64,000 bases of DNA from Chrysomallon squamiferum. Its lineage: Eukaryota > Animalia > Mollusca. The position numbers and the translations under genes were made by a program. This document shows, piece by piece, positions 311 to 33,379 of the stretch. The notes beneath the pieces were generated by a model. That model saw nothing but the letters and a program-made list of their open reading frames with translations, did not search any database and was not told the DNA's origin. Position 1 is the stretch's first letter. Each line of letters begins with the position of its first letter. The stretch is taken from NCBI GenBank assembly GCA_012295275.1, contig CM022670.1, positions 7,688,001 through 7,752,000 on the forward strand, written 5' to 3'.

Positions 311-1798
311 TTACTGGGATGTTCCTCCAGCTTTGTCACCAATCTCTGAAACCGACCTGGCCGACGCGTCTACACAGTCTGTCACTTTCTTCGCTGATCC
401 TGATCTTTTAGATACATTAGCAGATGTTTCTAAAATATGGCTTACTTTCTGTGCCGTGTCCTTTACCTGTTGAAAAGAGATTGCGATAGTATTAACGTAT
501 TTATTTACAGCAGAAACAGCTGTGTTACATTACAAAAAGAATACAGCAGCTTAGTTACACGTTGTATCAGTACTGATAAACAAAACGTTTCCGATAATCA
601 TGATAGTTAGGACAAATTAAATGCAAGACTATAACAATACGTCCTGACATTTCCAACATCCTATCTTCACATCTTGAGACATCGCTGTAATCAACAGAAC
701 TATTTTTAATATTGAAGATTGTAATATCTACAGGTTTGTACATTGTCCTATTTTCTTTTCAGTGAATTAAGCAAAATCATTCTCCTTCAGTTATGATTGA
801 TTCTAAATGAGAACAGAGAAAAAAAAAAAAAAAATTGCACAAGGAAAAACCAGTGAGAAACGTTTACGGGGTAGTTTGTGTTCCACAGCCTCGTGTGCAT
901 AGAACTTGACTCAAAGACTGTATAATGAGACAAACTGTTACATTTAAGTCAAAAATATTGATGTAACAGATATCTCTTCTTAAAAACATAAACAAAGTTT
1001 CTTTACAAATGTTTGTTTTGATTGTGAAATCTATCATTTAATTTAAATTACCTGTTTACTGATTTTTTCTCCGTATCTGCACCAGTTGGCAAAGTGTTCG
1101 CAGTTGTTTGTAGCAACATGGTATTCACCAAACTTTCCCTTTCCAAGTTTTGATCTTGCTCTTTTAACGATTTCTTCACTGCTGAATGGACTATACGTAC
1201 AAGTAAGAAATTTAATTCTCAGTTTTAAGTGCTTTATAAATTGTTATACCTTACAGCCAGTTATAAACATCGTTATTGCTAAATATGTACATGAAAACAT
1301 TTGTGATTATTTATTCCTTTTATGTTCTGATTTCTGTTACAGGTTCTTTATTAAAATAATTGATTGAATTGCGATCGTTCAAAAACACGTAAATCTGTAT
1401 TACAATACTTTTAATACTTATTTGTGTATCTTTTTTAAAACTGTTCAAAAATCTAATATGAAATAAAATAATTTTTGACAATTACCTTTTCTTAAACTCA
1501 ATCTCGCACGATGACGTTTCACCTCTGACAGTTTCATAATCTTCTTCTGTAACACTGCTGTCAGTTGTAAAGTGAACAACCTTTCCATTTCCTAGGAAAT
1601 ATATATATATATATACATACATACAGAGATACATACATATATACACATGTGTGCTTATGTGTGTGCTTTTTAGAGGAGAGAGATATGCGTACATACGTAT
1701 AAAAAAAGAAATCGGTATAATGTAAACTTACCGACATAAACGGCAACATGTGAAAACATGCCGCGTGAAAATTTTATTATACATCCTGGTTCTTCCAT
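311..1798 (-). CDS. LRAT/PLAAT (HRASLS)-family phospholipase A/acyltransferase-like protein, array copy 1 (155 aa, 4 exons)
   Basis: Exons 1798-1732, 1591-1486, 1190-1052, 466-311; GT-AG introns, phases 1/2/0. MEEPGCIIKFSRGMFSHVAVYVGNGKVVHFTTDSSVTEEDYETVRGETSSCEIEFKKSPFSSEEIVKRARSKLGKGKFGEYHVATNNCEHFANWCRYGEKISKQVKDTAQKVSHILETSANVSKRSGSAKKVTDCVDASARSVSEIGDKAGGTSQ*. H17/H29/C88 correspond to the LRAT-domain H-box, second His and NCEHF. Confidence 0.9.
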
Positions 1799-2373
1799 TT
1801 TGGAATTTATTCTGGAATGCTTTCGAAGTTATCTCGAGAATAAAATGTATGATACACTCGGTATGTCAACGGCTTACTTTGAGATTTTAACCAACTGAAA
1901 TTCTTCCTGTTTCCTGAGAATAAAACTGAAGTGTCAAAGGTGAAAAATGGCAAAGCACGAATTTCTATTAATTTATTTATCTGTTTACTTATTTATTGAT
2001 TTATTTACTTATTAAACGATAGTGCAAATAAAAAAGTTGAAATTAAAGTAACAACATTTTAATTTTCCATTTATGAAGTAAACGTATTTTTTTGGAAACG
2101 CGCTTAACAAGGCACAAAGGTTTGGCCCTGAATACAATTAAAGTTCTCCCTCCCCATTGATTTTGTATTGTAGTCAAATGGAAGATTACCTACTTCTATA
2201 CGTCACTGTTTAGGTATCCACGTTAGACTATATTTATAGCCCGACCCACACTAACTTTTATCTATACATGTAGGTGTGTGTGGATATGTGTATCTATGTT
2301 TCTATGTATGTATATATGTTGTATGTGAGTGTGTATGTATGTGTTTATGTATTTGTATGTATATATGTGTGTC

Positions 2374-2416
<43 letters not shown>

Positions 2417-5116: not shown

Positions 5117-5155
<39 letters not shown>

Positions 5156-5523: not shown

Positions 5524-5640
5524 TCTGCTCCTTTTACCATATCTACACCAGCAGTCAAAGTGCTCGCAGTTCTTTCAAGCTACATTGTATTTACCAAATA
5601 TTTTGTGTCCAACTTTTGATTTTGCTCTCTTCACAATTTC
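5524..5640 (-). pseudogene. PLAAT-like exon-3 remnant
   Basis: EIVKRAKSKVGHKIFGKYNVA*KNCEHFDCWCRYGKRSR; in-frame TGA at 5575-5577; no splice sites. A decayed exon-4 trace is present near 4690-4765. Confidence 0.85.
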
Positions 5641-6727
5641 ATTTGTTTTATTTGGTTAATTTAATTTTTGTTCTTTCTTTTTCATCTCTATTTTTTATTT
5701 TTATTTGTTCCTCTGTCTGTCTCTCACAGCGTCTGTCCTTTTCTCCGTCTTTCACTTTTCTAACGCAAAATGTTAAGTAAAATAATACTCTTTAGAAATG
5801 AAGTCGGTTTTATTTGCTATTTTTGAAAAAAAAAAAATAAATTAAAAAAAACCTGTTAACTTATTTTTATTTATTTACTTTTTATTTATCCAGATTTCCA
5901 AAGATAACGCTGTAAAAAATACATTACGTTAAAGTAGCGTCATTTTCCTTATTTTACTGGCAATCGTTTGTCACAGGTCACCAAGAATTGACCTCTTAAT
6001 GTAAATACATATCTCGTTTCCCTTTGTATTGCAGTTAACGGATAGCTACCTATTCTATACGTCGTTCTACTCCTCTAGTTTCTCTACATTAGGTTATAAT
6101 TCTTCGTTCCGGATCATAGAAATGCAGTGTTATTACCCTCCACACAGAGAGAACTATATTCACGTAGTCTGTCCATGTCTATATAAAATGAATGTATTTA
6201 TACATACATATATATATAAAATGTAAGAAAAAAATTTACCACAAATATCCACACATACATACTATTTAAAATGAATCAACAACTTTAAATATTGTAGTCA
6301 AATAATGTTTTATTCTTCGTCAGTTTAAACTTTTACATGGAACAATATTACTAGTCACTAAACCATTTTAACTTTTTTTATTCAAAATATTGTACAGTAA
6401 ACTGTACAGTAATTGTAAAGCCAGTACTTGACTTGGATTTAAACAGTTTGAAAAAAACAATGTTATGAATGGGAAAACACCGTTAACAAATGTGAGGAAT
6501 AGAGATTAAAAGGTATTCAATAAGCCTTTGTTAATTTCCCTAAAACATATATACAATACGACAAAACCTAGCTTGACCTAGCTTTAAACACACTGGTAGA
6601 AAAGAGTGTTATACATTACGATAAATCCTCATTTTCTCTAACACTTCAATATTTATATTAGCACAAAGAAACCAAACTAATAGAAAACGTCTACCTCAAA
6701 ACAAAAAAAAACAAAAAAATATGTTGA

Positions 6728-8234
6728 TTAAAGCAATATTTTGTGAGTAAAGAAAATTAAATTTAAAAAATCGAAACATTCTAGTTTGATCAAAAACGCG
6801 TCTACACAGTCTGTCATTTTCTTCGATGCTCCTGAACTTTTAGATACCTTAGCAGATGTTTCTAATATACCGCTTACTGTCTGTGCCGTGTCCTTTACCT
6901 GTTGAAAAAAGATTGCAATAGTATTAACGTATTTATTTACAGCAGAAACAGCTGTGTTAAATTAGAAAAAGAATACAGCAGCTTAGTTACACGTTGTATT
7001 AGTACTGATAAACAAAACGTTTCCGGTAATCATGATAGTTAGGACAAATTAAATGCAAGACTATAACAATACATCCTGACCTTTCTAACATCCTATCTTC
7101 ACATCTTGAGACATCGCTGTAATCAACAGAACTATTTTTAATATTGAAGATGGTAATATCTACATGTTTGTACATTGTCCTATTTTCTTTTTAGTGAATT
7201 AAGCAAAATCATTCTCCTTCAGTTATGACTGATTCTAAATGAGAACAGAGAGAAAAAATAATAATAAACCGCACAAGGAAAAACCAGTGAGAAACGTTTA
7301 CGGGGTAGTTTGTGTTCCACAGCCTCGTGTGCATAGAACTTGACTCAAAGAATACAGACTGTATAATGAGACAAACTGTTACATTTAAGTCAAAAATATT
7401 GATGTAACAGATATCTCTTCTTAAAAATATAAACAAAGTTTCTTTACAAATGTTTGTTTTGATTGTGAAATCTATCATTTAATTTAAATTACCTGTTTAC
7501 TGATTTTTTCACCGTATCTGCACCAGTTGGCAAAGTGTTCGCAGTTGTTTGTAGCAACATTGTATTCACCAAACTTTCTATTTCCAAGTTTTGATCTTGC
7601 TCTTTTAACGATTTCTTCACTGCTGAATGGACTATACGTACAAGTAAGAAATTTAATTCTCAGTTTTAAGTGCTTTATAAATTGTTATACCTTACAGCCA
7701 GTTATAAACATCGTTATTGCTAAATATGTACATGAAAACATTTGTGATTATTTATTCCTTTTATGTTCTGATTTCTGTTACAGATTCTTTATTAAAATAA
7801 TTGATTGAATTGCGATCGTTCAAAAACACGTAAATCTGTATTACAATACTTTTAATACTTATTTGTGTATCTCTTTTAAAACTGTTCAAAAATATATGAA
7901 ATAAAATAAATTTTGACAATTACCTTTTCTTAAAGTCAATCTCGCACGATGACGATTCACCTCTGACAGTTTTATAATCTTCTTCTGTAACACTGCTGTC
8001 ATTTGTTAAGTGAATGACCTTTCCATTTCCTAGAAAAAAAATATATATATACATACATACAGAGATACATACATATATACACATGTGTGCTTATGTGTGT
8101 GCTTTTTAGAGGAGAGAGATATGCGTACATACGTATAAAAAAAGAAATCGGTATAATGTAAACTTACCGACATAAACGGCAACATGTGAAAACATGTTCC
8201 GTGAAAATTTTATTATACATCCTGGTTCTTCCAT
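6728..8234 (-). CDS. LRAT/PLAAT-like protein, copy 2 (160 aa, altered C-terminus)
   Basis: Exons 8234-8168, 8029-7924, 7631-7493, 6898-6728, canonical splice sites. Motifs SHVAVYVG, KVIHL, NNCEHFANWCRYG. Exon 4 matches copy 1 for 34 codons, then continues in frame as FLIKLECFDFLNLIFFTHKILL*. Confidence 0.85.
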
Positions 8235-9957: not shown

Positions 9958-10596
9958 CAAATGTTTTTAAGAATAAGACATATATTGATAAATTAGCATC
10001 ATTTCTTCTTCCTCTTCTTCTTCTTCTTCTTGGCATTTATTGTATTATAATGAATGCACTCAGTGTATCTGGTAATATGTTGCTTGTCAAACCATTCGTG
10101 CGTAGCCTCTGTCGAAATGTGATATCTACAGTATATTCTAATATTAGAGATTGTATAATCTTCATGTTTGTATTTTGTCCTATTTTCTTTTTGTTGAATC
10201 AAATAAAATCTTTCTCATTCAGTAATGACTACTTCTGATCAGAAAAATTAGAAGAAAAAAAAGATAATAATAGTGTGCCAAAGAAGAGAAAAAGGAGAAA
10301 AATCAGTTGACAAAATTTTGTATTGGTAAATAGTGAATGACAAGCGAGGTCAGTATGTGGATTTCTTTTGATAACATTCAGTGGTAACAGACTGATGATA
10401 TTCGTTGATATTTGAGGATTAACTTTGCCGTCCCCTCTTATGGACAACATTATGTACCCGACCTGTCTCAGAGAATCGAGGCATTTATGATCAGAAAAAA
10501 TAATATCAGAAAACTTACCTGACATATATTTTTAAAAGTATATAAAAATTATTCAGTTTAAAGATTTTTTTCTCTCAGTTAGCTCGAATAACTCAT

Positions 10597-10721
10597 CTGC
10601 TTTCTGCTCTTTTTACCATATCTGCATCAGTCGTCAAAGTGTTCGCAGTTGTTTCAAGCAACATTGTATCTCCCAAACGTTTCTTCTTGCTCTCTTCACA
10701 ATTTCTTTTTTGCTGAATGCA
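10597..10721 (-). pseudogene. PLAAT-like exon-3 remnant
   Basis: AFSKKEIVKRAR / frameshift / FGRYNVA*NNCEHFDD*CRYGKKSRKQ; donor mutated to ATGAGT. Confidence 0.85.
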
Positions 10722-10869
10722 ATACAGATATCTGAATATATTGGTTAGAAACTTAATTATTAGTTTTATTTGTTTCATAAATTGTTATGCCTTAAAAACT
10801 AGTTACGAAACCATGTCCATTATTATTAGTATATCTTTTACAAGAAAAGGTTGATTATTATTATATATA

Positions 10870-11180
10870 CAGTGGTACCTTGACTTACGAGTTTAATTCG
10901 TTCCGTAACCGAGCTCGTATCTCAATTTGTTAGGATATCAAATCAATTTTCCCAACTGAAATTAACTGAAATATCATTAATCAACCCCATTTTTTAAATT
11001 ATTTATTTATATATTTATTTATTTATTTAATTATTTATTTTATTTTATTTTATTTTTATTTTTATTTTTTTGAAAATGTATTTATAAATGACAAATATTT
11101 AATAAAAACAAAATAAAATACAATGTAAAGAAATAAATTGGTTTTGTAAAGTGTATTTATCTTGAAGATCAGACAACTTG
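10870..11180 (+). mobile_element. Tc1/mariner (pogo/Tigger-like) non-autonomous element, left end
   Basis: TA|CAGTGGTACCTTGACTTACGAGTTTAATTCGTTCCG resembles pogo/Tigger-type TIRs after a TA target. No right TIR found, so the end coordinate is approximate. Confidence 0.55.
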
Positions 11181-11189
11181 TCACTGAAA

Positions 11190-11355
11190 ATCTGGCTCGA
11201 ATTGTGACTCAAACTCTGGCCAAAATGCTAGCTTACTCTGTGACTCAAACTTAGACACAAACTGTGACTAAAACTCTCGCCCTAATTCTGACTCAAGTTG
11301 TGCCTCACATTCTAGCTCAAACTGGAACTAAGATTCTGAACCTAGATCTGACTCC
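11190..11355. repeat. Degenerate ~12-bp minisatellite
   Basis: Repeated TGTGACTCAAAC / TCTGGCTCAAAC-like units. Confidence 0.6.
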
Positions 11356-11609
11356 ATTTTATTTTAAACTGAAACGAACATAAATTTGGCATGATATTTA
11401 TAAGTCTGAGAAAACGTCTCATAATTCTGTCAATTAGTCGTCTGCTCGTTTTCATACGTCACTTGATTTGATATGTTGTTGAAATCATTACTTTTTCCTC
11501 ATTCTTTAGAGATGAAGTCAGTTTTGTTTAGTACTTGTTTAAAAACTGTTCTCCTGCATTATTTTTATTTATTTACTTATTTGTTTATTTAGATTTCGAA
11601 ATGTACCCG

Positions 11610-12550
11610 GCAGAAAACTTATCTGACAGATATTCTTAAAAACATATAAAAATAATTCTTTAAAAATGTATAGTTTGATTTTAGAGATATTTTTTTTCTC
11701 TCTCACAGTTAGCTCAAATAATTCTGCTCCTTTTACCATATAACAGCTCTAAGTGCTCACAGTTGTTTCAACCTACATTGTATTTACCAAACATTTTATG
11801 TCCAACTTTTGATTTTGCTCTCTTCACAATTTCATTAGTTTTATTTGGTTAATTTTATTTTTGTTCTTTCTTTTTCATCTCTCTATTTTATTTTTATTTG
11901 TTCCTCTGTCTGTCTCTCACAGCGTCTGTCCTTTTCTCCGTCTTTCACTTTTCTAACGCAAAATGTTAAGTAAAATAATACTCTTTAGAAATGAAGTCAG
12001 TTTTATTTGCTATTTTTGAAAAAAAAAAAAAAAAAAAACAGCAAAAAAAACCCCTGTTAACTTATTTTTATTTATTTACTTTTTATTTATCCAGATTTCT
12101 AAAGATAACGTAAAAAATACATTACATTAAAGTAGCGTCATTTTCCTCATTTTACTGGCAATCGTTTGTCACAGGTCACCAAGAACTGACCTCTTAATGT
12201 AAATACATATCTCGTTTCCCTTTGTATTGCAGTTAACGGATAGCTACCTATTCTATACGTCATTCTACTCCTCTAGTTTCTCTACATTAGGTTATAATTC
12301 TTCGCTCCGGATCATAGAAATGCAGTGTTATTACCCTCCACACAGAGAGAGCTATATTCACGTAGTCTGTCTATGTCTATATAAAATGAATGTATTTATA
12401 CATACATATATATATAAAATGTAACAAAAAAAATATATAAATAAATGAAACAAATCATAATAAAAACATACACATAACATTTAAAATCAATCAACAACTT
12501 TAAATACTGTAGTCAACTAATGTTTTATTCAATGTCGGTTTAAACTTTTA
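11610..12550 (+). repeat. Segmental duplication, direct copy of ~5420-6340
   Basis: Near-identical sequence including the pseudo-exon 3; twin spurious ORFs at 6029 and 12227. Confidence 0.9.
11723..11833 (-). pseudogene. PLAAT-like exon-3 remnant (duplicate of 5524-5640)
   Basis: EIVKRAKSKVGHKMFGKYNVG*NNCEHL...; same TGA position; lies in a block duplicated from ~5420-6340. Confidence 0.8.
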
Positions 12551-13475: not shown

Positions 13476-14759
13476 TTACTGGAATGATCCTGTATTTTTG
13501 GAAGCAAAGAATGACGACAATCCGCTTGCTGTCGCTGCAGACCCTGTTGATTGTGACGGTGCTCCTACCGCGGCAGATACAGAAGCAGCTGATCCAAATA
13601 ATGCGGCTGTTTTCGCTCCCACTGCTGCTACCTGTTAAAACAACGACGGTATTAACTTATCTATTTATTGCAGTATTCATTTTGGTAAATTAAAAAAAAG
13701 ACTACAGCACCTTAGTTACACGTTATATCAGTACTGGTAAATAAAAGATTTCCAACAATGACGATAGGTAGGAAAACGTAAATACGTGACTACATTAATA
13801 CACACATTCCAACATACTATCTATACATCTTGTATGATTATTTTTTAATATTAAAGACGATTATCTATATGTAGTATTTTATCCCACAGGCTCATATGCT
13901 CTGGACCTGACTTAGAGAATAGAGACTACATAATGAGATAAAATATTACATTAAGTCAAAAATCTTGATCTAACCTGTGTACTAGTTTTCTTATCGTATC
14001 TGCACCAGTTGGCAAAGTGTTCGCAGTTGTTTGTAGCAACATCGTATGCACCAAACTTTCCCTTTCCACGTTTCGATCTTGCTCTCTTCACAATTTCTTC
14101 TTTGCTGAATGGACTGCACATACAAGTAAGAAATGTAATTGTTGGCTTTAATTGCTTCATAAATTGTTATATCTTAAAACAAGTTACAAACATCGTTATT
14201 GCTAAATATTTTACATGAAAAATTTGATTGCTGTTAGAGGTTCTTTATTCAGGTAATATATACACCGAAGTCTGATGGGATTGGACTGTTCAAAACACGG
14301 ACATCTATATTAAAATACTTTTAATACTTATTTGTCTATCTTTTTTTTTTTAAATCTGTCTAAAACTCTACGATGAAACAAAATAATATTTGACAGTTAC
14401 CTTTCCCTAGAATCAACCTTATACGACGACTGACCACGAACAATTTCAAAATCTTCTTCTCTAATAATGCTGTCATTTGTCAAGTGAACAACTTTTCCAT
14501 CTCCTAGGAAACAAAAAATCACGATAAGTCATAGATACACGACAAAATGATATGTGAAGGTTATGAACAGAGATTCAGTTATTTGTATATATCTATATCC
14601 ATATATACATATACATATATATTTATGCAGTATGTATGTATGTATGTATGTATGTATGTATAAAACAGCAAACCACTATAATGTAATCTCACCAACAAAC
14701 ACGGCATAATGATAAATTCTTTCGCGTTTGAATATTATTATATCTCCTGGTTCTGGCAT
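13476..14759 (-). CDS. LRAT/PLAAT-like protein, copy 3 (154 aa)
   Basis: Exons 14759-14693, 14503-14401, 14113-13975, 13631-13476. MPEPGDIIIFKRERIYHYAVFVGDGKVVHLTND...YDVATNNCEHFANWCRYDKKTSTQ plus tail VAAVGAKTAALFGSAASVSAAVGAPSQSTGSAATASGLSSFFASKNTGSFQ*. Confidence 0.9.
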
Positions 14760-19265: not shown

Positions 19266-19300
<35 letters not shown>

Positions 19301-19769
19301 ATGTGTGTGTGTGTGTGTGCAAACACATAACTTGATTTGTTAAATAATGTTTTTTTTAATTATATATAGGTTTATATATATATGTGTGATGAAAAGAAAT
19401 ACTTTATGTAAATTTACCCTCTTGCTTTATAATATTATACTTATTTTACCACAATTTTTTCAAATTATTTTTGTATTTTTTCTTAAATTATCTTTTTATT
19501 GAAACTATTTTAGAGTCTCTAATTAACATGTATAGACCAGCTGACCACATAAATCAAACCAGTATTTTATCATTTTTATCATGTGTATTGTAATTTTACA
19601 CTCTAATAAAAAAAAAAAATAAAAAAAAAATTAACCAGCGAATCTGATTTAGAATAATTAATTGTTTAAGTTAGAAACGTATCAAGTTTATTTTCCGTTG
19701 TATTAAAATGATTTTGTTATTTATTCAATATTTATTTATTGGAGGTTTTCGTTGTTGTTCTTGATGATG

Positions 19770-20105
19770 TTTATTTTTATTTATTCTGAATTTGGGACAT
19801 GGTCTGCTGGGGAAAGAATGAACGGCATTACTTTTAGTAAACAGTAAAACAAATAAGAAACATAAAATTAGTATCATTTTAAGTTAAGAGCAGTGTCTCA
19901 TATTTGCTTTTTAATATTAATTCTACAGCAGACAAATATTACAAAGTTTTTTGAATAATGTGTAAAAATTACTCGTCAGTATTCAAAAGACAAAAACAAA
20001 TGTATATATGAAGAAAGAAATACAAAAAGAAAAGGAAAGGAAAGACTGAATAATTAAAGAAATAATAATAACGAAGTAAACTAAAACTGGATTATTTACC
20101 TTAAG

Positions 20106-20150
<45 letters not shown>
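19770..20150 (+). repeat. Diverged copy of the paramyosin 3' region (~38440-38880)
   Basis: TTATTCTGAATTYGGGACRTGGTCTRCTGGGGAAAGAATGAACGGCAT and AAAACTGGATTATT...(GT)n occur colinearly at both loci. Confidence 0.8.
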
Positions 20151-22301
20151 TGTGTGTTGGTGGATCATTTTGAAGAAATCACAGTTAAGTAAATCCTCAT
20201 TCTCGATTCCAAAACTAAAACTAAAAAAACCGTTTGGAATAAATGTTGAATCGGGCAAATGTTAAGACAGAGAGATAAAATAATTTCCCCAATAATTTAT
20301 GTTGACATTAGTAAAATTGTGAAGGAACAATATTTTAATTTACTGATTACCATGAAAAATCCAATAACAACACGTCCCGTTATAGATTACAATAAAAAAA
20401 AACTCAAGTCTAATAGACATTTTAGTCTCAAAGCTATTTTCTGAATAGTATGCCTGTATAACGTCATGTTCCCAAAGGATTTACGAATTAATTCGATAAA
20501 AGGTGCGTAGATCTTTTGAAATGTATTTTTTGGAATGTTTCTGTTTTTAAAATGTTACATATTTTTTTTACAGACTTGAAGAAAAGATACCTTCTAAACA
20601 CTGTTTGAAATAATTTGAATTAGATTCTTGAAATGTATTTGTTTTTAGAAGTGTATTTATATTAAATGTTACATTATTTGTACAATTATAGAAAGGCTAT
20701 TTTCAAAATAGTTATTAAAATAGAAATGTACTGTTTTCTTCTAGAAATGTATAACTGAACAAGTCTGAACGCTCTTGTATATAGCTTTGAAATGTTTTAT
20801 GCATTAAAATATATGTCTTAAAATTTGATAACAAAATAATTAATATACAAGCAAAGGACCAAAGCACACTGCAATAAACGTTACAATGATCAACTTTAAT
20901 TTTTTTCATAATAAAAAAAATGTCCTGTACCAATCCGAGGTTTAATTCTTAAATCCAAACATACATACACGTAGGCCCATTTATTATTCATTTCTTTCTT
21001 TCTTAGAATCAAGTACGCAGTAAACTGAAGTAATGCAATTTCCAGAGAAGCTTGTTCTCTGTGTATTTCCTACTTCTACAGTTCTGACGACAAAGGCAAT
21101 CAGCTTGACTTCGAAAATTGTCAGCTATTTTTTTTATTAGGCTCGTGCATTTCTCGGAAATTGTCTTTTGTTTATAGTTTATTGTGATCTCTTTTTTTAG
21201 CTGAATTGTCACATATCTCACTATACTAGTATTTGTATTTATGTAACTGATATTCATGCGTAATAAACCAAGCTGTTATTCATCAAAATCAGCTAGTGAA
21301 GCGTGACAAAGTTGTGTTCTATATTTCTTTACACTAACTGAATATAATTTATTTCTTAACAGAGGAAGGTATATTCATACAAACATTCAAGCATTTATAT
21401 GTACATACATGCATACATTTATACATACACACACATTCATACATACATACGTACATATCCACATAGACAAACATACATACATACATATGCATACTTACAC
21501 ATACATACCTACATATGCATAAACACATATATGTACACACACACACATACACACAAACACATATCTACTTTACATACTTGAACTCTAATAATGTCAGTTT
21601 GCACGTTTACATGATATAAATCACACACAATATTAATTTTAATTTTAATCTTTCCTTTTCTAAATATTGTACAGTAAACTGCACAGTAAGAAGTAAAGCC
21701 AATACTTGCCTTAGCTTTAAATAAACTGCTTGAAAAGAATGTTGTGAGAAAAAGGGAAAAAAGTTACAAAAATCTGGGCATAAAAGATCAAAAGTTATAT
21801 AATTATCCCATAATGGGTTCCTAAAATGATATATATTTGTATATTAAGATGGTATTATCTACATCTGTCTACTTAGTCCTATTTTCTTTTTACTGAATCC
21901 AAGAAACCATTCTCATTTACAAGATGACTACTTCTGAGCAGAAAAAAAATTAGAAGAAAAAAAGATAATAATAGTGTGCCAGAGAGAAAAAAAGGAGAAA
22001 AATCATTTGACAAAATTTTATATTCGTAAAGAGTGATTGACAAGCGTCGTCAGTATCTGGATTTCTTCTGATAACATTCTAAGGTGAACAAAGTGACGAT
22101 ATTCGTTGATATTTGAGGATAATCTTCGCCCTCCTTTCTTATAGACCACATTATGGACCGGACCTGTTTCAGGGAATCGAGTCATTTATGATGAGACAAA
22201 ATAATACAGAAAAACTGATCTGACAGATAGCTTTGACAACATATAAAACCAATTCTTTAAAAATGTCTAGTTTCCTTTCAGAAATGTTTTTTTCCCTCAC
22301 T

Positions 22302-22420
22302 TTTGTGCTCTTTTTAACCATATTTGCACCAGCTGTCAAAGTGCTTGCAAATGTTTGAAGCTACAATGTACTTAGCAAAGGTTTCAGTCCAACATTCGAT
22401 TTTACTCTCTTCACAATTTC
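22302..22420 (-). pseudogene. PLAAT-like exon-3 remnant
   Basis: EIVKRVKSNVG / frameshift / AKYIVASNICKHFDSWCKYG*. Confidence 0.8.
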
Positions 22421-23209
22421 TTTAGTTTTCTTATTGTTCTTTCTTTTTCATCTCTCATTTTTCTTTTTCTTTCTTCCTCTGTCTCTCAAAGCGTTTGTTC
22501 CTTCCTCGGTTTTTATCTTTTCTTTCACACAATTCACAATGCTAAGTAAGATAATACTCTTTAGCGATGAAGTCGTTTGTGTTTAGTATTTGTTTAAAAA
22601 CTGTTCTCTGACCTTATTTTTATTATTTACTTACTTATTTATTTAAATTTCTAAATATAACGCTGTAAAAAAAAATATATTACATTGAAGTACCATCATT
22701 ATCCTGCCAACAGTTTGTTACAGGTCACCAAGTTTTGTCCTCATAATGTATATACATATCTCGTTTCCCTTTGTATTGCAGATAAAGGAAAATTACCTAC
22801 TTATTTCTATACGTCAATCTAATCCTCAGGAATCTACGTTAGGTTACAATTCTTCGTGCAGAAATCCAATGTTAATAACCCACCAAGCAACAAAGACTTA
22901 TTCACATATCAAAGCTCTGTACATATGTATACTTACATACATATATATTAAAAAACCTAAAAAAAAAAACAATTTAAAAACCTCCACAAGCACATAACAT
23001 TTAAGTCAGTCAACAATTTTAAATACTGTAGTCAGACAATGTCTTTTCTTTTTATCTTTTTTTTCCGTCCGTTTAAACATTCACATCATATAAAGAACAC
23101 ACAATAATATTTGTCATTAAGTCATTTCAACTTTTCTTACTCAAAATATTGTACAGTAAACTGCACAGTAATAGTAAAGCCAATATAATAAAACCTGGTT
23201 TTCTGTAAC

Positions 23210-23505
23210 AATTTTATTTTAATATTTTCGAAGATAAACAAACTAAACTAAAAGAAAACGTCCACCACCACCAAAAATAGTGTTAAACATTTTAATATAA
23301 GCAATGTTTTGTGAATAAAGAAAATTAAATTAAAATATCAAAACATTCTAGTTTTATCAAAGATTTAGTTAATTATAAAATGACTGAAAGGTACAAAATT
23401 TGTGTGAACTCTTTTTAACATCTCTGGTTAGGAATATCATTAAATGATATAACATTCTTTTTTAGTTTCATAAAATGTTTTAAAAGACAGATCTGTTCAA
23501 GTTAA

Positions 23506-23538: not shown

Positions 23539-24480
23539 TTATTTTTAAATATTTGGTTAAAAATCAATAACATATAGATTTTTTCGGTTATAGTTCTTCA
23601 AAAAAGAAAATGATAATAATATATACATATATTTAAAAAAAAAAAAACTGGATTAGACTGACAAATGGAAAAAGAAGTCTTTAGTTAATTCTTTAAAAAA
23701 CAAACTTAAAAGCAGTGTCAAATTGAAAACTGTCTCTTGATTACTGAGGTAATCCTCTAGCGTCGGAAGCTAAGGTTCTTGCAGTCTCGCTGAAAAAACC
23801 TGCAGACGATCCAAGTAGATAACCAGCATATTTAGATACAGAGGCCATTCCCTTCGCCACCGTTGCTACCTGTTAAAAACAAAAAAGATCTTCCGATAGC
23901 ATTAAGTTATCTATTTACTGCAGTACCAGTTTCATTAAATTACTAAAACACTACAGCAGCTTAGTCGCACGTTATATCAGTACTGGTAAACAGAATATTT
24001 CTAATAATGACGATACGTAGGACAAATTAAATACATGACTATTACAACAGACCCTGATCTTTCCAACGTCCTGTCTACACATCTTGTGTCATTGTTGTAA
24101 TCAATAGAAGTATTTTCTAATATTCAAGATGGTATTATCTACATGTTTGTACTTTGTCCTATTTTCATTTTATTGAATGAAGCAAAATCATTCTCGTTCA
24201 ATTATGAATATTTATAAATGAAGGGGGGGTGGAAGTAATAAACTATACAGGAAAAAACTAACCAGAGATGATTAAAAAAATTCATACAGATTTTGTGCCT
24301 TTCAGTCATCTTATAACTAACTAAATGTTTGATGAAACTAGAATGTTTTGATTTTTTAATTTAATTTTCTTTATTCACAAAACATTGCTTAAATTAAAAT
24401 ATTTATCACTATTTTTGCTGGTGGTGGACGTTTTCTTTTAGCTTTGTTTGTTTATCTTCGAAAATATTAAAATAAAATTT
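23210..24480. repeat. ~220-bp inverted repeat pair (23210-23431 / 24258-24480)
   Basis: AAAAGAAAACGTCCACCACCA (~23250-23270) is mirrored by TGGTGGTGGACGTTTTCTTTT (~24419-24439); colinear reverse complement over the whole arm. Confidence 0.88.
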
Positions 24481-25255
24481 TAGCGGGTCTCATTGAGCTC
24501 AAAGAATATGTATAAAATATTACATTAAGTCAAAAACATTGATCTCAAAGATATCTATCATTAAAAGAATGAACAAAATTTCTTTAAAAATATTTCTTTT
24601 GCTCGTGAGATCTATCATTTAAAATAAATCACCTGTGTACTTGATTTGTCACCGTATCTGCACCAGCGGGCAAAGTGTTCGCAGTTGTTTTTAGAAACAT
24701 GGTATTGACCAAACGTGTTTTGTCCAATCATTGATCTCGCTCGGTTCACAATTTCACTTTCGCTGAACGGACTACACATACAAGTAAGAAATGTAATTGT
24801 TGGTTTTAACAGATTCATAAATTGTTATACCATATAAACATTGTTTCTGCTAAATATTTTACATGAAAAATTTGTGCCTGATTATTCCTTTTAGTTTCTG
24901 ATTACTGTTACAGGTTCTTTATTGAAATAATATATACTCCATATTTAGGTGAAATCAGAAATCTACATTGCAATACCTTTTTTGACAGATTTGTTTAAAA
25001 ATCTAATATGAAATAAAATAATATTTGACAATTACCTTTTCCCAGAATCAATCGTATACGGCGATCCATTTCTAACATCTTCAAAATAGTTTTCAGTAAT
25101 AGAGCTGTCGCCGTTTAAGTGAACAACTTTTCCATTTCCTAAAAAACCCCAGAAAATAAATATAAAATAGGAAAGTATTACAAACCAAATGCAAAGTTCA
25201 AGATAATTCAGAGACATATGAGATAATGCATACGTGAAACTTATGAACAGAGATT

Positions 25256-25291
<36 letters not shown>

Positions 25292-25419
25292 GAGCGAGGG
25301 ATATGCATATATATGTATCAAACAAGAAATCAGTATAATGTAAGCTTACCAACATAAACCGCGTCATGATGGAAGAATGGGTTGCGTTTGAATATTATTA
25401 TATCTCCTGGTTCTGGCAT
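23741..25419 (-). CDS. LRAT/PLAAT-like protein, copy 4 (146 aa, most divergent)
   Basis: Exons 25419-25350, 25138-25036, 24771-24633, 23869-23741. MPEPGDIIIFKRNPFFHHDAVYVGNGKVVHLNGD...YHVSKNNCEHFARWCRYGDKSSTQ plus VATVAKGMASVSKYAGYLLGSSAGFFSETARTLASDARGLPQ*. Confidence 0.9.
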
Positions 25420-26860: not shown

Positions 26861-27429
26861 TACATACATACACATATACACATTCACACACATACATACC
26901 TATATATGCATACACACATATATGTACACACATGTATCTACTTTACATACTTGTACAACATTATGTTAATTTTAATTTTTTCAAAATATTGTTCAGCAAA
27001 CTGCACAATAATAGTAAAGCCAATACTTGCTTTAGCTTTAAATAAACTGCTTGTAAAGAATGTTGTGAGAAAAAAAAAAGTGGGCATAAAAAATCAAAAG
27101 TTATATAATTATCCCATATTTCTGGGTTTCTAAACCGATATATATTTGTATATTGAGATTGTATTATCTGCATGTTTCTATTTTGTCCTATTTTATTTTT
27201 AGTGATACAAAGGGAAACCGGTTTCATTTAATCATGACTACTGCTGAGCAGAAAAAAAAAATTAGAAGAAAAAAAGATAATAATAGTGTGTCAGAGAGAA
27301 AAAAGGAGAAAAATCAGAAACACTGATCTGACAAATAGCTTTGAAAACATATTAAAACAATTCTTTAAAAATGTCTAGTTTCATTTAAGAAATGTTTTAT
27401 CTCTCTCACTTATAGTTAAAACAACTCAT

Positions 27430-27550
27430 CTGTTTTGTGCTCTTTTTACCGTATCTGTAACAGTTGTCAAAGTGCTGGCAATTGTTTGAAGCTGCATTGT
27501 ACTTAGCAAAAGTTTCGTGTCCATCTTTCGATTTTACTCTCTTCGCAGTT
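27430..27550 (-). pseudogene. PLAAT-like exon-3 remnant
   Basis: TAKRVKSKDGHETFAKYNAASNNCQHFDNCYRYGKKSTKQ; donor mutated to ATGAGT; no acceptor or upstream exons. Confidence 0.8.
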
Positions 27551-27842
27551 CTTTAGTTTTATTTTGTTCTTTCTTTTTCGTCTCTCTTTTTTCTTTTTCT
27601 TTCTTCCTCTGTTTGTCTCTCAAATAGACATTCAAAGTTAATTAACTTTTTGATCTTTTATTTTTTAAATATTTAGTTAAAAAATGGGTAGAATTTAAAT
27701 AACTAGTTCTTCAAAATGTTTAAATAATAATAAAATATGTATATATTATTAACAAAAGCTAGAATTAGACAGACAAAATGAAAAAGAAACTTTTAGCTAA
27801 TTCTGTTCAAAAATGGTGTCTAACACAAAACTGTCTCTGTAA

Positions 27843-27998
27843 TTAGTGGAATGTTCCTATAATTCTGGAAGCAAAGAGGGATAATATTCCGCTTCACGTC
27901 GCTGCAGACCCTGTTCATGCAGACAGTGCACCTAGCGCGGCAGATCCAGAACCAGCTGATCCTAATAAAGCTGCTGTTGTAGCTCCCACTGATGCTAC
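27843..27998 (-). pseudogene. PLAAT-like orphan exon 4 with intron-3 remnant (exons 1-3 deleted)
   Basis: VASVGATTAALLGSAGSGSAALGALSA*TGSAAT*SGILSLFASRIIGTFH*; colinear with copy-3 exon 4 (156 nt); acceptor CAG>CAT; two internal TGA. Confidence 0.85.
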
Positions 27999-29909
27999 AT
28001 GTTAAAAAAAATGGATCTTCTGATAGTTTTAACTGAAGTATCAGTTTTGTTAAATTACAAAAACACTGCAGCAGCTTAGTTACGCGTTGTATCACTACTG
28101 GTAAACAAAATATTTCCAGTAATGAAGATAGATAGAAAACATTAAATACATGAGTATTACACCACACCCTGACCTTTTCAACATCCTATCTATACATCTT
28201 GTGTCACTGTGGTAATCCACAGAAGTATTTTCTAGCATTAAGGATGGTATTATCTACATGTGTGTACTTTGTCCTATTGCCTTTTAATCAATCAAGCAAA
28301 CTCGTTCTCATTTAGTTATGACTACTTCTGAATGAGATCACAGAGGAAAAATAATAATAACTTGTACAAGAAAAAAAAAGGAGAAAATTATACAAAATAT
28401 TATATTAAGTCAAAAGTACTGATCTCGTAGAAATCTATTTTTAACAGCATAAACAAAATTTCTTTAAAAATGAAATATGATTAACACAAGTGATAAAGGT
28501 TTGGCCTTGAACAAAAATACATTGTCCTTTCCCCACGGAGTTTCTGTTGTAGTCAACGGAAAATTACCCACTTCTATACGTCATTCTGTTACTTGGGTAT
28601 CCAGGTACGGTTATATATATTTTTTTGTATAGAAATACAATCTTAATAGCCCTACTCACACACCCTTATGTACGTGTGTATGTGTGTGTGTGCTTCTATG
28701 TATGTATATGTGAGAGTGTATGGATGTGTTTATGCACTTCTGTGTATATCTGTATGTTTATATGTAAATACCAAGGATATAAATTCAAGAAGGTTTTATT
28801 CATTCTTGAAATAAATACTGTAAACAATCTTTTGCTAATGCAGACATTATTGAAGTCTGGGTTGTTACTTACATACACGACTTAACATAACCTAAACGTA
28901 ACTAACATTACAATGGTCAACTTTAAGTCAACTCGAACCTAGAGACAGATTTAGAAAATGATTAATTTTTTTAATAAAAAACAAAAATGTCCTTTAATTC
29001 TTAAATACATACATACATACACACAGATCCATATATTATTCATTTATTGATTAGGATCTGGTACGCAGTAAATTAAAGTAATAAAATTTTCCTAGAAGCT
29101 TCTACCTGGAAAACTTTCTTCTTTGTGTGAATTTCCTAGTAGCATAGCTCTGACGTCACAAATTATTCGTTTGACCTAGAAAATTGCTAGCTATTTTTAT
29201 TAGGCTCGTGCATTTCTCGGAAATCGTCTTTTCTTTATAGTTTATCGTGATCTCTTTGTTTCGCGGAATTGTCACATATCTCACTGCAGCAGAATTTGCA
29301 TTTATGTTCATTCAACCAAAAACAACTAGTCAAGTGTGACGAAACTATATTTTATATTTCTTTACACTAACTGAATATAATTTATTTCTTAATAGAGGAA
29401 GGCAGTTTCACACAAATATGCATACATACATATACATACATACATACGTACATACATACATACATATATATATCCATACATAGATACATACACACACATA
29501 TATACCTACATATGCATACGCACGCATATATCTACTTTACATGCTTGTACTCTAATAATGACGGTTTAAATGTTTACATGGTATAAAGCACACACAAATA
29601 TTAATTTAAATTTTAATTTTAATTTTTCCTCTTCTAAATATTGTACAGCAAACTGCACAGTAATAGTAAAGCCAATATTTGCCTTAGTTTTAAATACACT
29701 GCTTGAAAAGAATGTTGTGAAAAAAAGAAAAGAAAACGCTATGCAAATGTGGCCATAAAAGATCAAAAGTTATATAATTAACGCATAATGGGTTTCCCAA
29801 ACCATACATATCTTTATATTAAGATTAAAAAAAAAAAAAAAGAAAAAAAAAGAATAGCGTAAAAGCTGATTACTTTAAAAACAAAGTCACGGAGAAAACT
29901 CTCTCTGCA

Positions 29910-30656
29910 CTAGGATAATTCCTGTAATGGTCCTTCAGCTTTAGAAGTAAACTGTGATGACTCTACGCTCGAAATCGCTGTCGCTGCTGTAGATGTTGAT
30001 GATAATCCTTTCATTTTTCATTCTGAATCAAATACGCCGAATACACTAGCTGCAGCTTTTCCCACTGTTGTTACGTTTTAAAACGAAAAGATCCTGCGGT
30101 AGCCACTTACTGCATTATCGGTTTTTTTTAAATCACAGAAAGCGGCCTGAATTCAAAATGTTTGCAATAATGAATACAAACAGCAAAACATATAAATACA
30201 AGACTACCATGACGTGCCGTTCACCAATCTAGAGCCCTGTTATATACAAGAGAAGCAGTTTTATAGGCTTGGAGCTGCGGTTTCGTTATTATTGTATAAT
30301 AATGCACTCAGTGTTATTTGTGAAACCATTCATCATTAGCCTCTGTCGAAATGTGTATCTACAACATATTCTAATATTAAACATTGTATGGTCATCATGT
30401 CTGAATTTTGTCCTATCTACAGTATATTTTACAATTAAAAAATGTATGGTCTTCATGTTTCTGTTTTGTCCTATTTTTTATTTTATTTTATTTTATTTTG
30501 TTTTCTCTCTCACTATTAGTCAAAATAGCTCATCTATTCTGTGCTCTTTTTAGCATATCTGCACCGGTTGTCAAAGTTGTCGCAGATACTGAAGCAATAT
30601 TGTATTTACCAAAAATTTCATGTCCAACTTTAGACTTTTACTCTCTTCACAGTTTC
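29910..30656 (-). pseudogene. PLAAT-like pseudogene (exon-3 and exon-4 remnants)
   Basis: Exon-4-like 30074-29910 VTTVGKAAASVFGVFDSE*KMKGLSSTSTAATAISSVESSQFTSKAEGPLQELS*; decayed exon-3-like 30656-30534; splice sites lost. Confidence 0.75.
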
Positions 30657-31931
30657 GTTAGTTTTATTTCTTAGGTCTTATTTTTGCTCTTGCTTTTTCA
30701 TCTCTCTTTTTTCTTTTTCTTTTTTCCTCTGTCTGTCACCCAAAGCGTCTGTCATTGCTCTGTTCTTCATTTTTCTTTCTCACAATGTTAAGTAAGACAA
30801 TACTATTGAAGTCAGTTTTGTTCAGTATTTCTTTAAAAAAAAAAAAAAAAAATAGAAATGTTCTTACATTATTTTTATTTGTTTACTTTTTATTTATTTA
30901 GATTTCTAAAGATAACGCTGTAAAAGAAATACGTTTCATTAAAGTACCGTCATTTTCCTTAATAATTTGACAACCGTTTGTCACAGGTCACCGAGTTTTG
31001 ACCTCGTAATGTAAACACATATCCCGTTTCCCTTTGTATCGCAGTCAACGGAAAACTATCTACTTCCATACGTTATTCTGTTCCTCAGGAATTTACGTTG
31101 GGTTATATTTGTTCGTTTCAGATCAGTAAATCCATTATTAATACCCCTTCTCAAAGAATTATTCACATGTTATGTCCATGTATGAATATATAATTTAAAA
31201 AAACCCATAAAAACAAACAAACAAAAAACAAACAACTTATCCATAAACACATAAGATTTAAAATGAGTCAACAACCTTAAATAGTCAAACAATGTTTTAT
31301 TCTTGGTCGGTTTTAACGTTTACAAGACATAAAGAATACACATACCTGCCATTAAAACATTTTAACTTTTCTTTTTCACAATATTGTTCAGTAACCCGCA
31401 CAGTTCTATATTTATATTTTCTAACTTAAAGGAATCAAATTAAAAGAAAACGTCAACAAAAAAAAGTGTACAAGGTTTTCAGCCAATATTGATAAATAAG
31501 TTAATTGAAGAAATTGTTTGTGGATAAAGAAAATTACATTTAAAAAAAAACTAAAAACATTCTAGTTTCATTAAAAATTTATAGTTAGTTTTTAACTGAA
31601 TGAAAGGTACAACATTTAAAATAATTAATAAAGCACAATTAGTCAAAATGACGTGTAAAGTTAATTGACTTTTTGATCTTTTATTTTTTAAATATTTCGT
31701 TAAAACTCAGTAGAATTTGAATTGTTCCTGTTATTACATAAAAATAACACAAGCAAACAAAGGCTTCAGGTAAAAAGCAAATAACTAGTTCTTCAAACGT
31801 TTTAAATGATAATAATGTGTACATACATTTAACAAAAGCTGGATTAGTCAGACAAAACGAAAACAGGAACATTTAGCTAATTATTTTCGAAAATAGTGTC
31901 AAATTACTGGAAACTGTAATTACTGGAATGA

Positions 31932-33379
31932 TCATGATTTTCTGGAAGCAAAGCGTGATGCTTTTTCGCTTGATCCCATTGCAAGCCCTGCTAATGCAGT
32001 CGGTGCTCCATCTGTGGCAGCTTGAAAAGCAAATTTTCCTAAAGATTCTAACGCGCTCAGTCCCGCTGCTGCTACCTGTTAAAAAAAAAGGATCTTCTGA
32101 TAGTTTTAACTGATCTATTTACTGCAGTATCAGTTTTGTTAACTTACGAAAACACTGCAGCAGCTTAGTTACGCGTTGTATCAGTACTGGTAAAAAAATG
32201 GTTCAAGTAATGACAATAGATAGAAAATATTAAATACATAAGTATTACAACACACCCTGATCTTTTCAACATCCTATCTACACATCTTGTGTCATTGTTG
32301 TAATCAACAGAAGTATTTTCTAATACACAAGATAGTATTATCTACATGTTTGTACGTTGCCCTATTTTCTTTTTAGTCAATCAAGCAAAAATCAGTCTCA
32401 TTCAGTTATGACTACTTCTAAATGGGAACACAGAGGAAAAATAATAATAATTTGTACAAGAAAAAACACTGAGAAAATTATACAAAATATTACATTAAGT
32501 GAAAAATACTGATCTCACAGATATATATTCTTAAAAGCACAAACAAAATTTCTTTAAAAATCTTTGTTTTGATCGTGACATCTATCATTTAAGTTAAAAT
32601 ACCTGTCTACTGGCTTTATAATCGTATCTGCACCAGTTGGCGAAGTGTTCGCAGTTGTTTGTAGCAACATTGTATTCACCAAACTTTCTATTTCCAACTT
32701 TTGATCTTGCTCTCTTAACAATTTCTTCTTTGCTAAATGGACTGCACATACATGTAAGAAATGTAACTGTTAGTTTTAACTGCTTCATAAATTGTTATAT
32801 CTTAAAACAAGTTACAAACATCGTTATTGCTAAATATTTTACATGAAAAATTTGATTGCTGTTAGAGGTTCTTTATTCAGGTAATATATACACCGAAGTC
32901 TGATGGGATTGGACTGTTCAAAACACGGACATCTATATTAAAATACTTTTAATACTTATTTGTCTATCTTTTTTTTTTTTAAATCTGTCTAAAACTCTAC
33001 GATGAAACAAAATAATATTTGACAGTTACCTTTCCCTAGAATCAACCTTATACGACGACTGACCACAAACAATTTCAAAATCTTCTTCTCTAATAATGCT
33101 GTCATTTGTAAGGTGAACAACTTTTCCATCTCTGGGGAAAAAGAAAAAAATAAAACGATAAGTCATAGATACACGACATAATGATATGTGAAGGTTATGA
33201 ACAGAGATTCAGTTATTTGTATATATCTATATCCATATATACATATACATATACATATATATTTATGCAGTATGTATGTATAAAACAGCAAACCATTATA
33301 ATGTAATCTCACCAACAAACACGGCATAATGATCAATATTGGTGCGTTTGAATATTATTATATCTCCTGGTTCTGGCAT
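31932..33379 (-). CDS. LRAT/PLAAT-like protein, copy 5 (~149 aa; possibly a young pseudogene)
   Basis: Exons 33379-33313, 33129 (or 33131)-33030, 32741-32603, 32075-31932. Triad intact (DHYAVFV, VVHL, NNCEHF). The exon-2 acceptor has lost 1 nt relative to copy 3 (ccccagAGATGG), so it is in frame only via the distal AG. TGA at 31932-31934 lies four codons before the ancestral TAA. Confidence 0.7.

What the first reader, a model, noticed from the sequence alone, without database searches (positions are those of the whole stretch)
311..33379. Expanded, rapidly diversifying LRAT/PLAAT (H-box/NCEHF) gene array: candidate lipid-enzyme defence repertoire
Seen: five complete 4-exon genes and at least seven remnants in ~33 kb, same strand and same intron phases, with an intact His-His-Cys triad and no signal peptide. 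Known: vertebrate PLAATs are phospholipase/acyltransferases; PLAAT4/RARRES3 is an IRF1/interferon-linked restriction factor, PLAAT3 is a picornavirus host factor, PLAAT3/Plaat1 destroy organelles in the vertebrate lens, and some picornavirus 2A proteins share the H-box/NC motif. Inference: birth-and-death expansion with variable active-site loops and tails fits a host-pathogen arms race. An alternative, if this is a cephalopod, is convergent use in clearing organelles from the lens or other transparent tissue. I know of no description of such a molluscan array but cannot search.
Basis: partly seen in the sequence, partly recalled or inferred. Interest (0 to 1): 0.85.

Follow-up and report, generated by a model that had tools for sequence, protein, structure and literature searches.

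The report
Lipid-enzyme array with fast-evolving tails
A mollusc, likely a snail, carries four or five side-by-side copies of a gene for a predicted membrane-lipid enzyme whose tail has changed its amino acids three to four times faster than its silent sites, likely because the tail aims the enzyme at membranes contested by microbes.

Summary
The array is real, but smaller than reported. Five 4-exon LRAT-domain (PLAAT-like) gene bodies lie on the minus strand just downstream of paramyosin. A, B, C and D splice in frame. E is one base short at exon 2 and stays in frame only via a second AG. B's tail is cut by a junction, and A/B may be alleles or very young copies. There are eight remnants, but the six exon-3 ones form one clade, mostly copies of one dead fragment. 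New result: exon 4 (the C-terminal tail) aligns without frameshifts yet diverges about twice as much as its flanks; dN/dS is 3-4 (LRT p 2e-5 or lower; 0 of 400 neutral simulations in each of 4 settings). The tails have lost the hydrophobicity seen in relatives. About 40% of core sites are fixed. The nearest named relatives are vent-snail (Gigantopelta) proteins, so the cephalopod-lens idea has no support. Best reading: cytosolic phospholipase/acyltransferases whose membrane-targeting tails were diversified by selection, likely in conflict with microbes; activity, expression and the antagonist are untested. PLAAT expansions occur in other animals; I found no description of this tail selection. 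The scan had not noted it elsewhere.

The parts
311..1798 (-). Gene A, 155 aa; exons 1798-1732, 1591-1486, 1190-1052, 466-311; hydrophilic, amphipathic-looking tail
   Evidence: GT-AG, in frame; Pfam LRAT 1.4e-12; contigs of X1 and X3 lie on its exons; tail hydropathy -0.05
6728..8234 (-). Gene B, 160 aa; exons 8234-8168, 8029-7924, 7631-7493, 6898-6728; tail homologous only to 6796, then read-through giving a hydrophobic end; allele or very young copy of A
   Evidence: 90 of 3025 aligned bases differ from A; listed contigs of X2 and X3 stop matching at 6796
13476..14759 (-). Gene C, 154 aa; exons 14759-14693, 14503-14401, 14113-13975, 13631-13476; Ala/Ser/Gly tail closest to the inferred ancestral tail
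   Evidence: contigs of X1 and X2 cover 13481-14015 with 6 and 0 differences; dN/dS 0.84 against the dead exon 4 at 28 kb
23741..25419 (-). Gene D, 146 aa; exons 25419-25350, 25138-25036, 24771-24633, 23869-23741; one extra codon and Asp beside the first His; 27-base in-frame deletion in the tail
   Evidence: not checked in other individuals
31932..33379 (-). Gene E, doubtful: exons 33379-33313, 33131 (or 33129)-33030, 32741-32603, 32075-31932; frameshifted with the first acceptor, 149 aa with the second; stop four codons before the shared stop; 5' half nearly identical to C, 3' half not
   Evidence: not checked in other individuals
5532..5642 (-). Exon-3 remnant with a stop codon
   Evidence: nhmmer 6e-23
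10589..10768 (-). Exon-3 remnant with stops and a deletion; keeps part of intron 2; sister to the other five
   Evidence: nhmmer 1e-28, tree
11749..11835 (-). Exon-3 remnant with a stop codon
   Evidence: nhmmer 2e-16
22310..22422 (-). Exon-3 remnant, frameshifted
   Evidence: nhmmer 7e-18
27423..27550 (-). Exon-3 remnant, 5' truncated
   Evidence: nhmmer 5e-18
27824..28250 (-). Dead exon 4 (two stops, lost acceptor) with the end of intron 3; intron closest to E, exon closest to C
29894..30083 (-). Second, more decayed exon-4 remnant
   Evidence: nhmmer 1.5e-13
30546..30658 (-). Exon-3 remnant, frameshifted
   Evidence: nhmmer 3e-16
38980..54770 (-). Neighbour: paramyosin gene, same strand, upstream of the array; part of its 3' flank is copied at 18.0-20.2 kb
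   Evidence: Pfam Myosin_tail_1; exon map; self-BLAST

Best explanation
This is a lineage-specific tandem array of PLAAT-like genes whose C-terminal tail exon shows positive selection (dN/dS 3-4), and the products are predicted cytosolic phospholipase/acyltransferases whose tails likely decide which membrane they attack, likely in conflict with intracellular microbes. Shown here: gene structure, the Cys-His-His motif, fixation of about 40% of core sites, excess amino-acid change in the tail and in loops beside the first His and the Cys, loss of tail hydrophobicity, and mosaic copies. Inferred from vertebrate PLAATs: the Cys forms an acyl-enzyme with a phospholipid chain and releases it to water or an amine/hydroxyl acceptor, and the tail docks the enzyme on a damaged or microbe-holding membrane. 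Inferred only: unequal crossing-over makes new copies, selection rewrites the tail from a hydrophobic anchor to weaker or amphipathic helices, and each copy thereby gains a different target membrane or escapes a microbial inhibitor.
For: Tail exon differs at 33-58% of bases between lineages against 17-28% in flanking intron and 3' flank, p<1e-4 in 8 of 10 gene pairs (pairs not independent). dN/dS 1.96-3.47 in 10 of 10 pairs, p<0.05 in 8; synonymous sites run near the intron rate; codon-model omega 3.0-4.0, p 2e-5 to 3e-7 in 9 of 9 settings. Neutral simulations with AT bias and CpG boost reached the observed pN-pS gap in 0 of 400 runs in each of 4 settings. Core M2a over M1a p 0.005, top sites 13, 14, 77, 100. 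A vs B: 23 of 415 coding against 25 of 1015 intron differences, p 0.005. 4 of 4 X1 differences that I translated in A's exons change an amino acid, two at sites that also vary among copies. Window copies form one clade, the Gigantopelta trio another (100/100 each). Tail maximum hydropathy -0.05 to 1.26 for A, C, D, E against 1.97-2.18 in 4 of 4 named gastropod relatives. The proxy model has the PLAAT3 fold (E 3e-8, TM 0.82 by target). Literature: the C-terminal hydrophobic domain is required for translocation to damaged membranes (PMC10102619); trimming it moves PLAAT3 between peroxisomes, mitochondria and ER (PMC9338259); RARRES3 is recruited to the Toxoplasma vacuole and opposed by a parasite enzyme (bioRxiv 10.64898/2026.09.12.751112); an Aplysia PLA2G16 homologue sits in a module with RIG-I and MPEG1 (PMC8195618); two HRAS-like-suppressor genes are 46- and 22-fold enriched in the symbiont organ of the scaly-foot snail (PMC7142155 supplement).
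Against: No expression or activity data for these genes. Positive selection does not name its cause. PLAAT constructs lacking the hydrophobic segment failed to deform organelles, so weak tails could mean weak or no membrane attack, above all for A. Core omega overall is 0.76-0.80 and not different from 1 (p 0.24-0.34); the site test fails for three sequences (p 0.13) and recombination can inflate it. The amphipathic signal is modest: shuffle p<0.05 in 3 of 5 tails, uncorrected. E may be dead, D has an atypical first-His motif, and B's tail is truncated. The snail genes enriched in the symbiont organ could not be tied to this locus: their listed neighbours are an LSAMP-like and kelch genes, and 'paramyosin' is absent from those tables. 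The 4 of 4 amino-acid-changing differences are what chance would often give, and only 40 of 117 rows were displayed. The codon models are my own code on five sequences.
Confidence: 0.5

Rival explanations
1. Adaptive specialisation without microbes: after duplication the tails were selected to send each copy to a different organelle or lipid pool (membrane remodelling, N-acyl lipid signalling, lipid droplets), or the selection comes from reproduction.
For: Fits every sequence result, including omega above 1. Tail edits alone relocate PLAAT3 among organelles. C keeps a near-ancestral tail while A/B, D and E each changed in bursts, as expected for one-off neofunctionalisation.
Against: Change continues in the youngest pair (A vs B coding excess) and recurs at the same codons (13 and 82/83), which suits repeated rather than one-off selection. 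Copies also keep dying.
Confidence: 0.27
2. Relaxed selection on redundant duplicates drifting toward pseudogenes; the fast tail reflects a low-complexity, GC-rich exon in an AT-rich genome.
For: Core omega 0.76-0.80, not below 1 by LRT. E is possibly frameshifted, B truncated, D atypical; 8 remnants. Exon 4 is 45-50% GC against 30-33% in intron. Two of three Gigantopelta copies lost the second His and one the Cys.
Against: Drift cannot give dN above dS: 0 of 400 in 4 of 4 neutral settings. Differences pile up at codon positions 1 and 2, not 3. Frames stay open with only an in-frame deletion despite up to 58% divergence. About 40% of core sites have omega 0.
Confidence: 0.12
3. The copies are haplotypes or assembly duplicates, not paralogues.
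For: Holds possibly for A vs B: 3% apart; the X2 contig placed on B has A's base at 5 of 5 listed sites, X1 contigs placed on A have B's base at 4 of 6; one X3 contig joins A's whole exon 4 to a B-like intron 3 and exon 3. C and E are 0-2% apart through most of intron 2.
Against: A/B, C/E and D differ by 15-30% in introns. C and E differ by 21% in intron 3 and 33% in exon 4. The flanking blocks repeat at 64-94% identity in a nested pattern. At least three lineages cannot be two haplotypes.
Confidence: 0.07
4. Convergent use in clearing organelles from a cephalopod lens or other transparent tissue.
For: Vertebrate Plaat1/PLAAT3 do this.
Against: Nearest named relatives are gastropod; paramyosin has no near-identical or cephalopod-named hit among 23; lens clearing needs the hydrophobic tail, which these copies lack; a developmental role does not predict omega 3-4.
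Confidence: 0.02

Closest known systems
Vertebrate PLAAT1-5 (HRASLS; PLAAT3/PLA2G16, PLAAT4/RARRES3, PLAAT2)
   Same: LRAT domain; Cys-His-His with NCEHF; best solved-structure hit HRASLS2, 4dpz, E 5e-5 on exon 3 alone; fold of the 48%-identical proxy matches PLAAT3; a tail follows the catalytic domain directly.
   Different: Core about 20 residues shorter between the second His and the helix (exon 2 has 34-35 residues for Pfam positions 25-81; His-to-NCE spacing 56-57 against 57-106 in 67 homologous domains); no N-terminal extension; NCEHFA for NCEHFV; tails mostly not hydrophobic enough for a membrane span; tail under strong positive selection, whereas mammalian plaat3 showed none (PMC10760033).
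Gigantopelta aegis PLAAT-like proteins XP_041348599.1 (P0035), P0204, P0205
   Same: Best full-length hit for 4 of 5 window proteins (43-48% identity); same short loop and an insertion before the Tyr preceding NCEHF; also a small species-specific clade with degenerate members.
   Different: Separate expansion (each group 100/100; sister relationship not resolved); longer hydrophobic tails with a basic end; none of 7 annotated LRAT genes shares a contig number with either paramyosin-like gene.
Tandem LRAT-domain loci of amphioxus and halibut (P0002 XP_034432933.1, P0003-P0005, P0001)
   Same: Repeated LRAT units in one locus: 8 matched stretches in P0002, 2-3 in the amphioxus proteins.
   Different: Annotated as fused multi-domain models; selection on tails not examined here; not orthologous to this array.
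LRAT proper and picornavirus 2A H-box/NC proteins
   Same: Same permuted NlpC/P60 superfamily; Aichivirus 2A is a weak fold match to the proxy (E 0.024).
   Different: No long insertion after the second His (the LRAT-specific insertion is recalled, not tested against an LRAT sequence); spliceosomal introns and a cellular neighbourhood exclude a viral origin.

Membership tests
LRAT/PLAAT (Pfam PF04970) | Profile match above the curated cut-off | tested here: met
   5 of 5 exon-3 translations score 44.6-48.4 bits against 24.3
LRAT/PLAAT (Pfam PF04970) | Cys-His-His triad with NCEHF motif, His before Cys | tested here: met
   A, B, C, D and the in-frame reading of E; definition from PMC10102619. 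D's first-His context is atypical
LRAT/PLAAT (Pfam PF04970) | Circularly permuted NlpC/P60 fold | tested here: inconclusive
   Met for the proxy P0035 (pLDDT 76.5; PLAAT3 E 3e-8, TM 0.82 by target); the window's spliced proteins were not folded
PLAAT1-4 type | C-terminal hydrophobic (transmembrane) segment | tested here: not met
   Max 19-residue hydropathy A -0.05, D 0.73, E 0.89, C 1.26, B 1.52 only through read-through; relatives 1.97-2.18. Cut-off of about 1.6 is recalled. PLAAT5 also lacks a predicted span
PLAAT1-4 type | Long flexible loop between strands 3 and 4 | tested here: not met
   Four residues after the His-x motif, 8 shorter than Aplysia; shortest end of the spacing range
PLAAT (all) | PLA1/2 and N-/O-acyltransferase activity | not testable with these tools
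   needs an assay
PLAAT (all) | Cytosolic, no signal peptide | tested here: met
   N-terminus starts at the first strand; no 19-residue window above 0.93 there; hydropathy only, no dedicated predictor
LRAT proper | LRAT-specific insertion and retinol esterification | tested here: not met
   No room for an insertion in exon 2; activity untested; the feature itself is recalled
Immune gene family under birth-and-death with positive selection | Lineage-specific tandem copies with pseudogenes | tested here: met
Immune gene family under birth-and-death with positive selection | dN/dS above 1 at an interface | tested here: met
   tail omega 3-4; that the tail is an interface is inferred
Immune gene family under birth-and-death with positive selection | Expression in immune or barrier tissue, induction by infection | not testable with these tools
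   no RNA data could be laid on these genes

The most novel reading that the evidence does not exclude
The array is a diversified set of vacuole-attacking lipid enzymes in a symbiont-bearing vent-type snail: each copy's tail is a recognition module tuned by selection to membranes around bacteria, letting the host open, digest or police symbiont- and pathogen-holding vacuoles. It would be the invertebrate counterpart of RARRES3 at the Toxoplasma vacuole, with the arms race written in the targeting tail rather than the active site.
Probability: 0.2. Interest if true: 0.82.

Novelty: new variant of a known kind. Interest (0 to 1): 0.52.

Why it matters
How PLAAT enzymes pick their target membrane is tied to the C-terminal tail but poorly understood. 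Here one locus offers four natural tails, selected to differ, on closely similar cores, so tail-swap experiments can test targeting directly. If the driver is microbial, it extends lipid-based cell-autonomous immunity, known from human RARRES3 and PLAAT3, to molluscs, and offers a candidate mechanism for control of intracellular symbionts. If not, it is a clean case of adaptive change in a subcellular targeting signal.

Tried and rejected
No whole genome is held, so genome-wide copy number could not be counted. No RNA holder was listed for 300-1900; this says nothing about expression. In one search the stretch 8.1-9.6 kb (5' half of B) had little or no cover in 4 of 4 runs, X3 had little over C's exon 4, and X9 little over A and B, while X1 and X2 contigs at 10-14 kb had about half the depth of those at 4-7 kb; this would fit presence/absence variation, but holes and contig depth prove nothing with this tool, so it is not used as evidence. 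D and E could not be checked in other individuals. The first homologue search with exon 3 returned 1 hit from 1 candidate and was uninformative. A B/E gene-conversion tract in exon 3 was tested: 3 sites group B with E there, but the region is conserved in most pairs (3 of 90 differences B-E, 4 of 90 A-B), so it is only a hint. The first tail dN/dS used a protein alignment that misplaced D and was replaced by the DNA-guided one; one search had exon ends off by three bases and was corrected. Linking the window to published snail gene IDs by neighbours failed. 59 of 60 spare ORFs had no Pfam match. The Atlas search gave only LRAT clusters. Earlier-finding look-ups gave one unrelated bacterial note and two blanks. 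Horizontal transfer was considered because unnamed metagenome proteins score nearly as well, but the window genes group with animal proteins (96/92) and have introns. No complex prediction was run: no partner is claimed.


Full report
Observation. The window is AT-rich animal DNA (about 30% GC). A profile search finds exactly five copies of exons 1 and 2, eleven of exon 3 and seven of exon 4, all on the minus strand. Five gene bodies, A to E, can be built with GT-AG introns in phases 1, 2, 0. Each exon 3 scores above the Pfam LRAT cut-off and exon 3 of B best matches human HRASLS2 among solved structures. A, B, C and D are in frame. E is one base short at the start of exon 2 relative to C; the first AG gives a frameshift, and only an AG two bases on restores the frame at the cost of a conserved Gly. 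B's last exon is homologous to A only up to 6796 and then runs into unrelated flank. D carries Asp next to the first His, seen in 0 of 67 homologous motifs. The array lies directly downstream of a paramyosin gene.

Are the copies real? A/B, C/E and D differ by 15-30% in introns, inside blocks repeated at 64-94% identity, so at least three lineages are true paralogues. A and B differ at 90 of 3025 aligned bases. Eight of nine listed runs, from two studies, hold part of gene A's stretch. In the four runs laid, contigs cover A's exons and C's exons 2-4, but they mix A and B: the X2 contig placed on B has A's base at 5 of 5 listed sites, X1 contigs on A have B's base at 4 of 6, one X3 contig joins A's full exon 4 to a B-like exon 3, and listed X2 and X3 contigs stop matching at 6796. 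A and B are therefore alleles placed in tandem or very young, exchanging copies, and B's hydrophobic end is likely particular to this haplotype or assembly. D and E were not checked in other individuals. C and E are 0-2% apart through most of intron 2 but 21% apart in intron 3, where E is closest to the dead exon 4 at 28 kb: E is a mosaic. The six exon-3 remnants form one clade and five share one truncation point, so they were mostly copied along with the repeat unit.

Selection. Exon 4 aligns across copies with no frameshift, only a 27-base deletion in D, and ends at a shared stop position. Yet it differs at 33-58% of bases between lineages against 17-28% in the flanks (p<1e-4 in 8 of 10 gene pairs; not A-B, not C-E). 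Synonymous sites run near the intron rate while non-synonymous sites run about twice as high: dN/dS 1.96-3.47 in 10 of 10 pairs, and 3.0-4.0 in a codon model under 3 trees and 3 frequency settings (p 2e-5 to 3e-7). Neutral simulations with AT bias and CpG boost never reached the observed gap (0 of 400 in each of 4 settings). C against the dead exon gives 0.84, so C kept an old tail while A/B, D and E each moved away. The core averages omega 0.76-0.80, not different from 1, made of about 40% fixed sites and a class near 3-4 (p 0.005 for five sequences, 0.006 for four, 0.13 for three). The top sites lie just before the first His and in the loop before the Cys. These models are my own code on few, recombining sequences.

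Relatives. Exon 3 matches 1688 of 1.84 billion representatives at E 0.001; 150 were listed. The best full-length match for 4 of 5 window proteins is a PLAAT-like protein of the vent snail Gigantopelta aegis (43-48%), which has two further paralogues, both lacking the second His and one the Cys. The window's five and the Gigantopelta three are separate clades; a sister relationship was not resolved (30 rows). Paramyosin's best hits are 63% identical and include Batillaria; none of 23 is named as a cephalopod. The host is likely a gastropod; the species was not established, and the lack of a close Gigantopelta paramyosin hit leaves even the family open. Of 10 proteins looked up, 6 carried names: halibut (8 matched stretches), four amphioxus, one nematode. 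LRAT-domain repetition is thus not rare in animals.

Anatomy. A model of the Gigantopelta proxy (pLDDT 76.5) matches PLAAT3 (E 3e-8) and shows a helix right after the core. Its tail, its paralogues' and Aplysia's reach hydropathy 1.97-2.18; the window's native tails reach -0.05 to 1.26. A, B and D look amphipathic (shuffle p 0.03, 0.009, 0.04; C and E not; uncorrected). The loop after the second His is very short.

Mechanism. Shown: conserved catalytic motif, selected tails, mosaic copies. From known biology: PLAATs use the Cys nucleophile, and translocation to damaged membranes needs the C-terminal domain (PMC10102619, passages); trimming the tail moves PLAAT3 between organelles and losing the hydrophobic segment abolishes organelle deformation (PMC9338259, passages); RARRES3 goes to the Toxoplasma vacuole and is opposed by a parasite enzyme (bioRxiv 10.64898/2026.09.12.751112, abstract and outline). 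In molluscs, an Aplysia homologue is co-expressed with RIG-I and MPEG1 (PMC8195618, passages), and in the scaly-foot snail two HRAS-like-suppressor genes are 46- and 22-fold enriched in the symbiont-housing gland and a third differs between populations (PMC7142155, supplement rows). I could not show that any of these is at this locus. Inference: selection rewrote the targeting tail, most plausibly in conflict with microbes (0.5); organelle or reproductive specialisation is the main rival (0.27).

Prior description. Ten paper searches (listings only unless named here) gave no account of a molluscan PLAAT array or of selection on its tails. The main texts of PMC7736800, PMC7895826 and PMC7142155 hold no 'HRAS'. 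The expanded-family table of PMC7142155 had no HRAS or LRAT row; one supplement was too large to read and file 13 was not searched for these terms. PMC7895826 annotates 7 LRAT-type genes, two adjacent. Supplements of PMC7736800 were not searched. PMC10760033 (passages) reports C-terminal divergence in some vertebrate plaat1 and plaat3 lineages but no selection across mammalian plaat3. Most subscription journals are outside the library.

Verdict. A real, lineage-specific PLAAT-like array of four or five genes. The family and its tendency to expand are known; the strong positive selection on a de-hydrophobised targeting tail is the new element. New variant of a known kind, interest 0.52.

Noticed in passing
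window 16570-16980 (+) and its copy 35278-35682 (+): THAP-domain-like open frame (Pfam E 8.5e-5, just under the cut-off) duplicated with the C/E unit; the second copy diverges by a frame change; likely a transposon remnant.
   Followed up: partly
window 38980-54770 (-): Paramyosin gene of at least 12 exons, only 63% identical over its largest exon to the best of 23 hits, which points to a poorly sampled lineage or fast evolution.
   Followed up: partly
window 10860-11560: High-copy interspersed repeat (summed contig depth in the thousands in 4 of 4 runs, many loose ends at its edge) inserted among the remnants; type not determined.
   Followed up: no
window 23210-23431 and 24258-24479: A 222-base inverted copy at 92% identity brackets exon 4 of gene D; one arm lies in intron 3, and a similar element sits near 6620-6795 beside B's junction.
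   Followed up: no
window 18044-20157 against 36866-38883: Part of paramyosin's 3' flank was copied with the C/E unit, which marks the extent of that duplication.
   Followed up: partly
P0204, P0205 (Gigantopelta aegis): Both lack the second catalytic His and P0204 also the Cys, yet keep long open frames with hydrophobic tails: possible pseudo-enzymes.
   Followed up: no
P0002 (halibut XP_034432933.1): 1125-residue model of repeated LRAT domains without tails between them; a real multi-domain protein or a merged tandem array.
   Followed up: no
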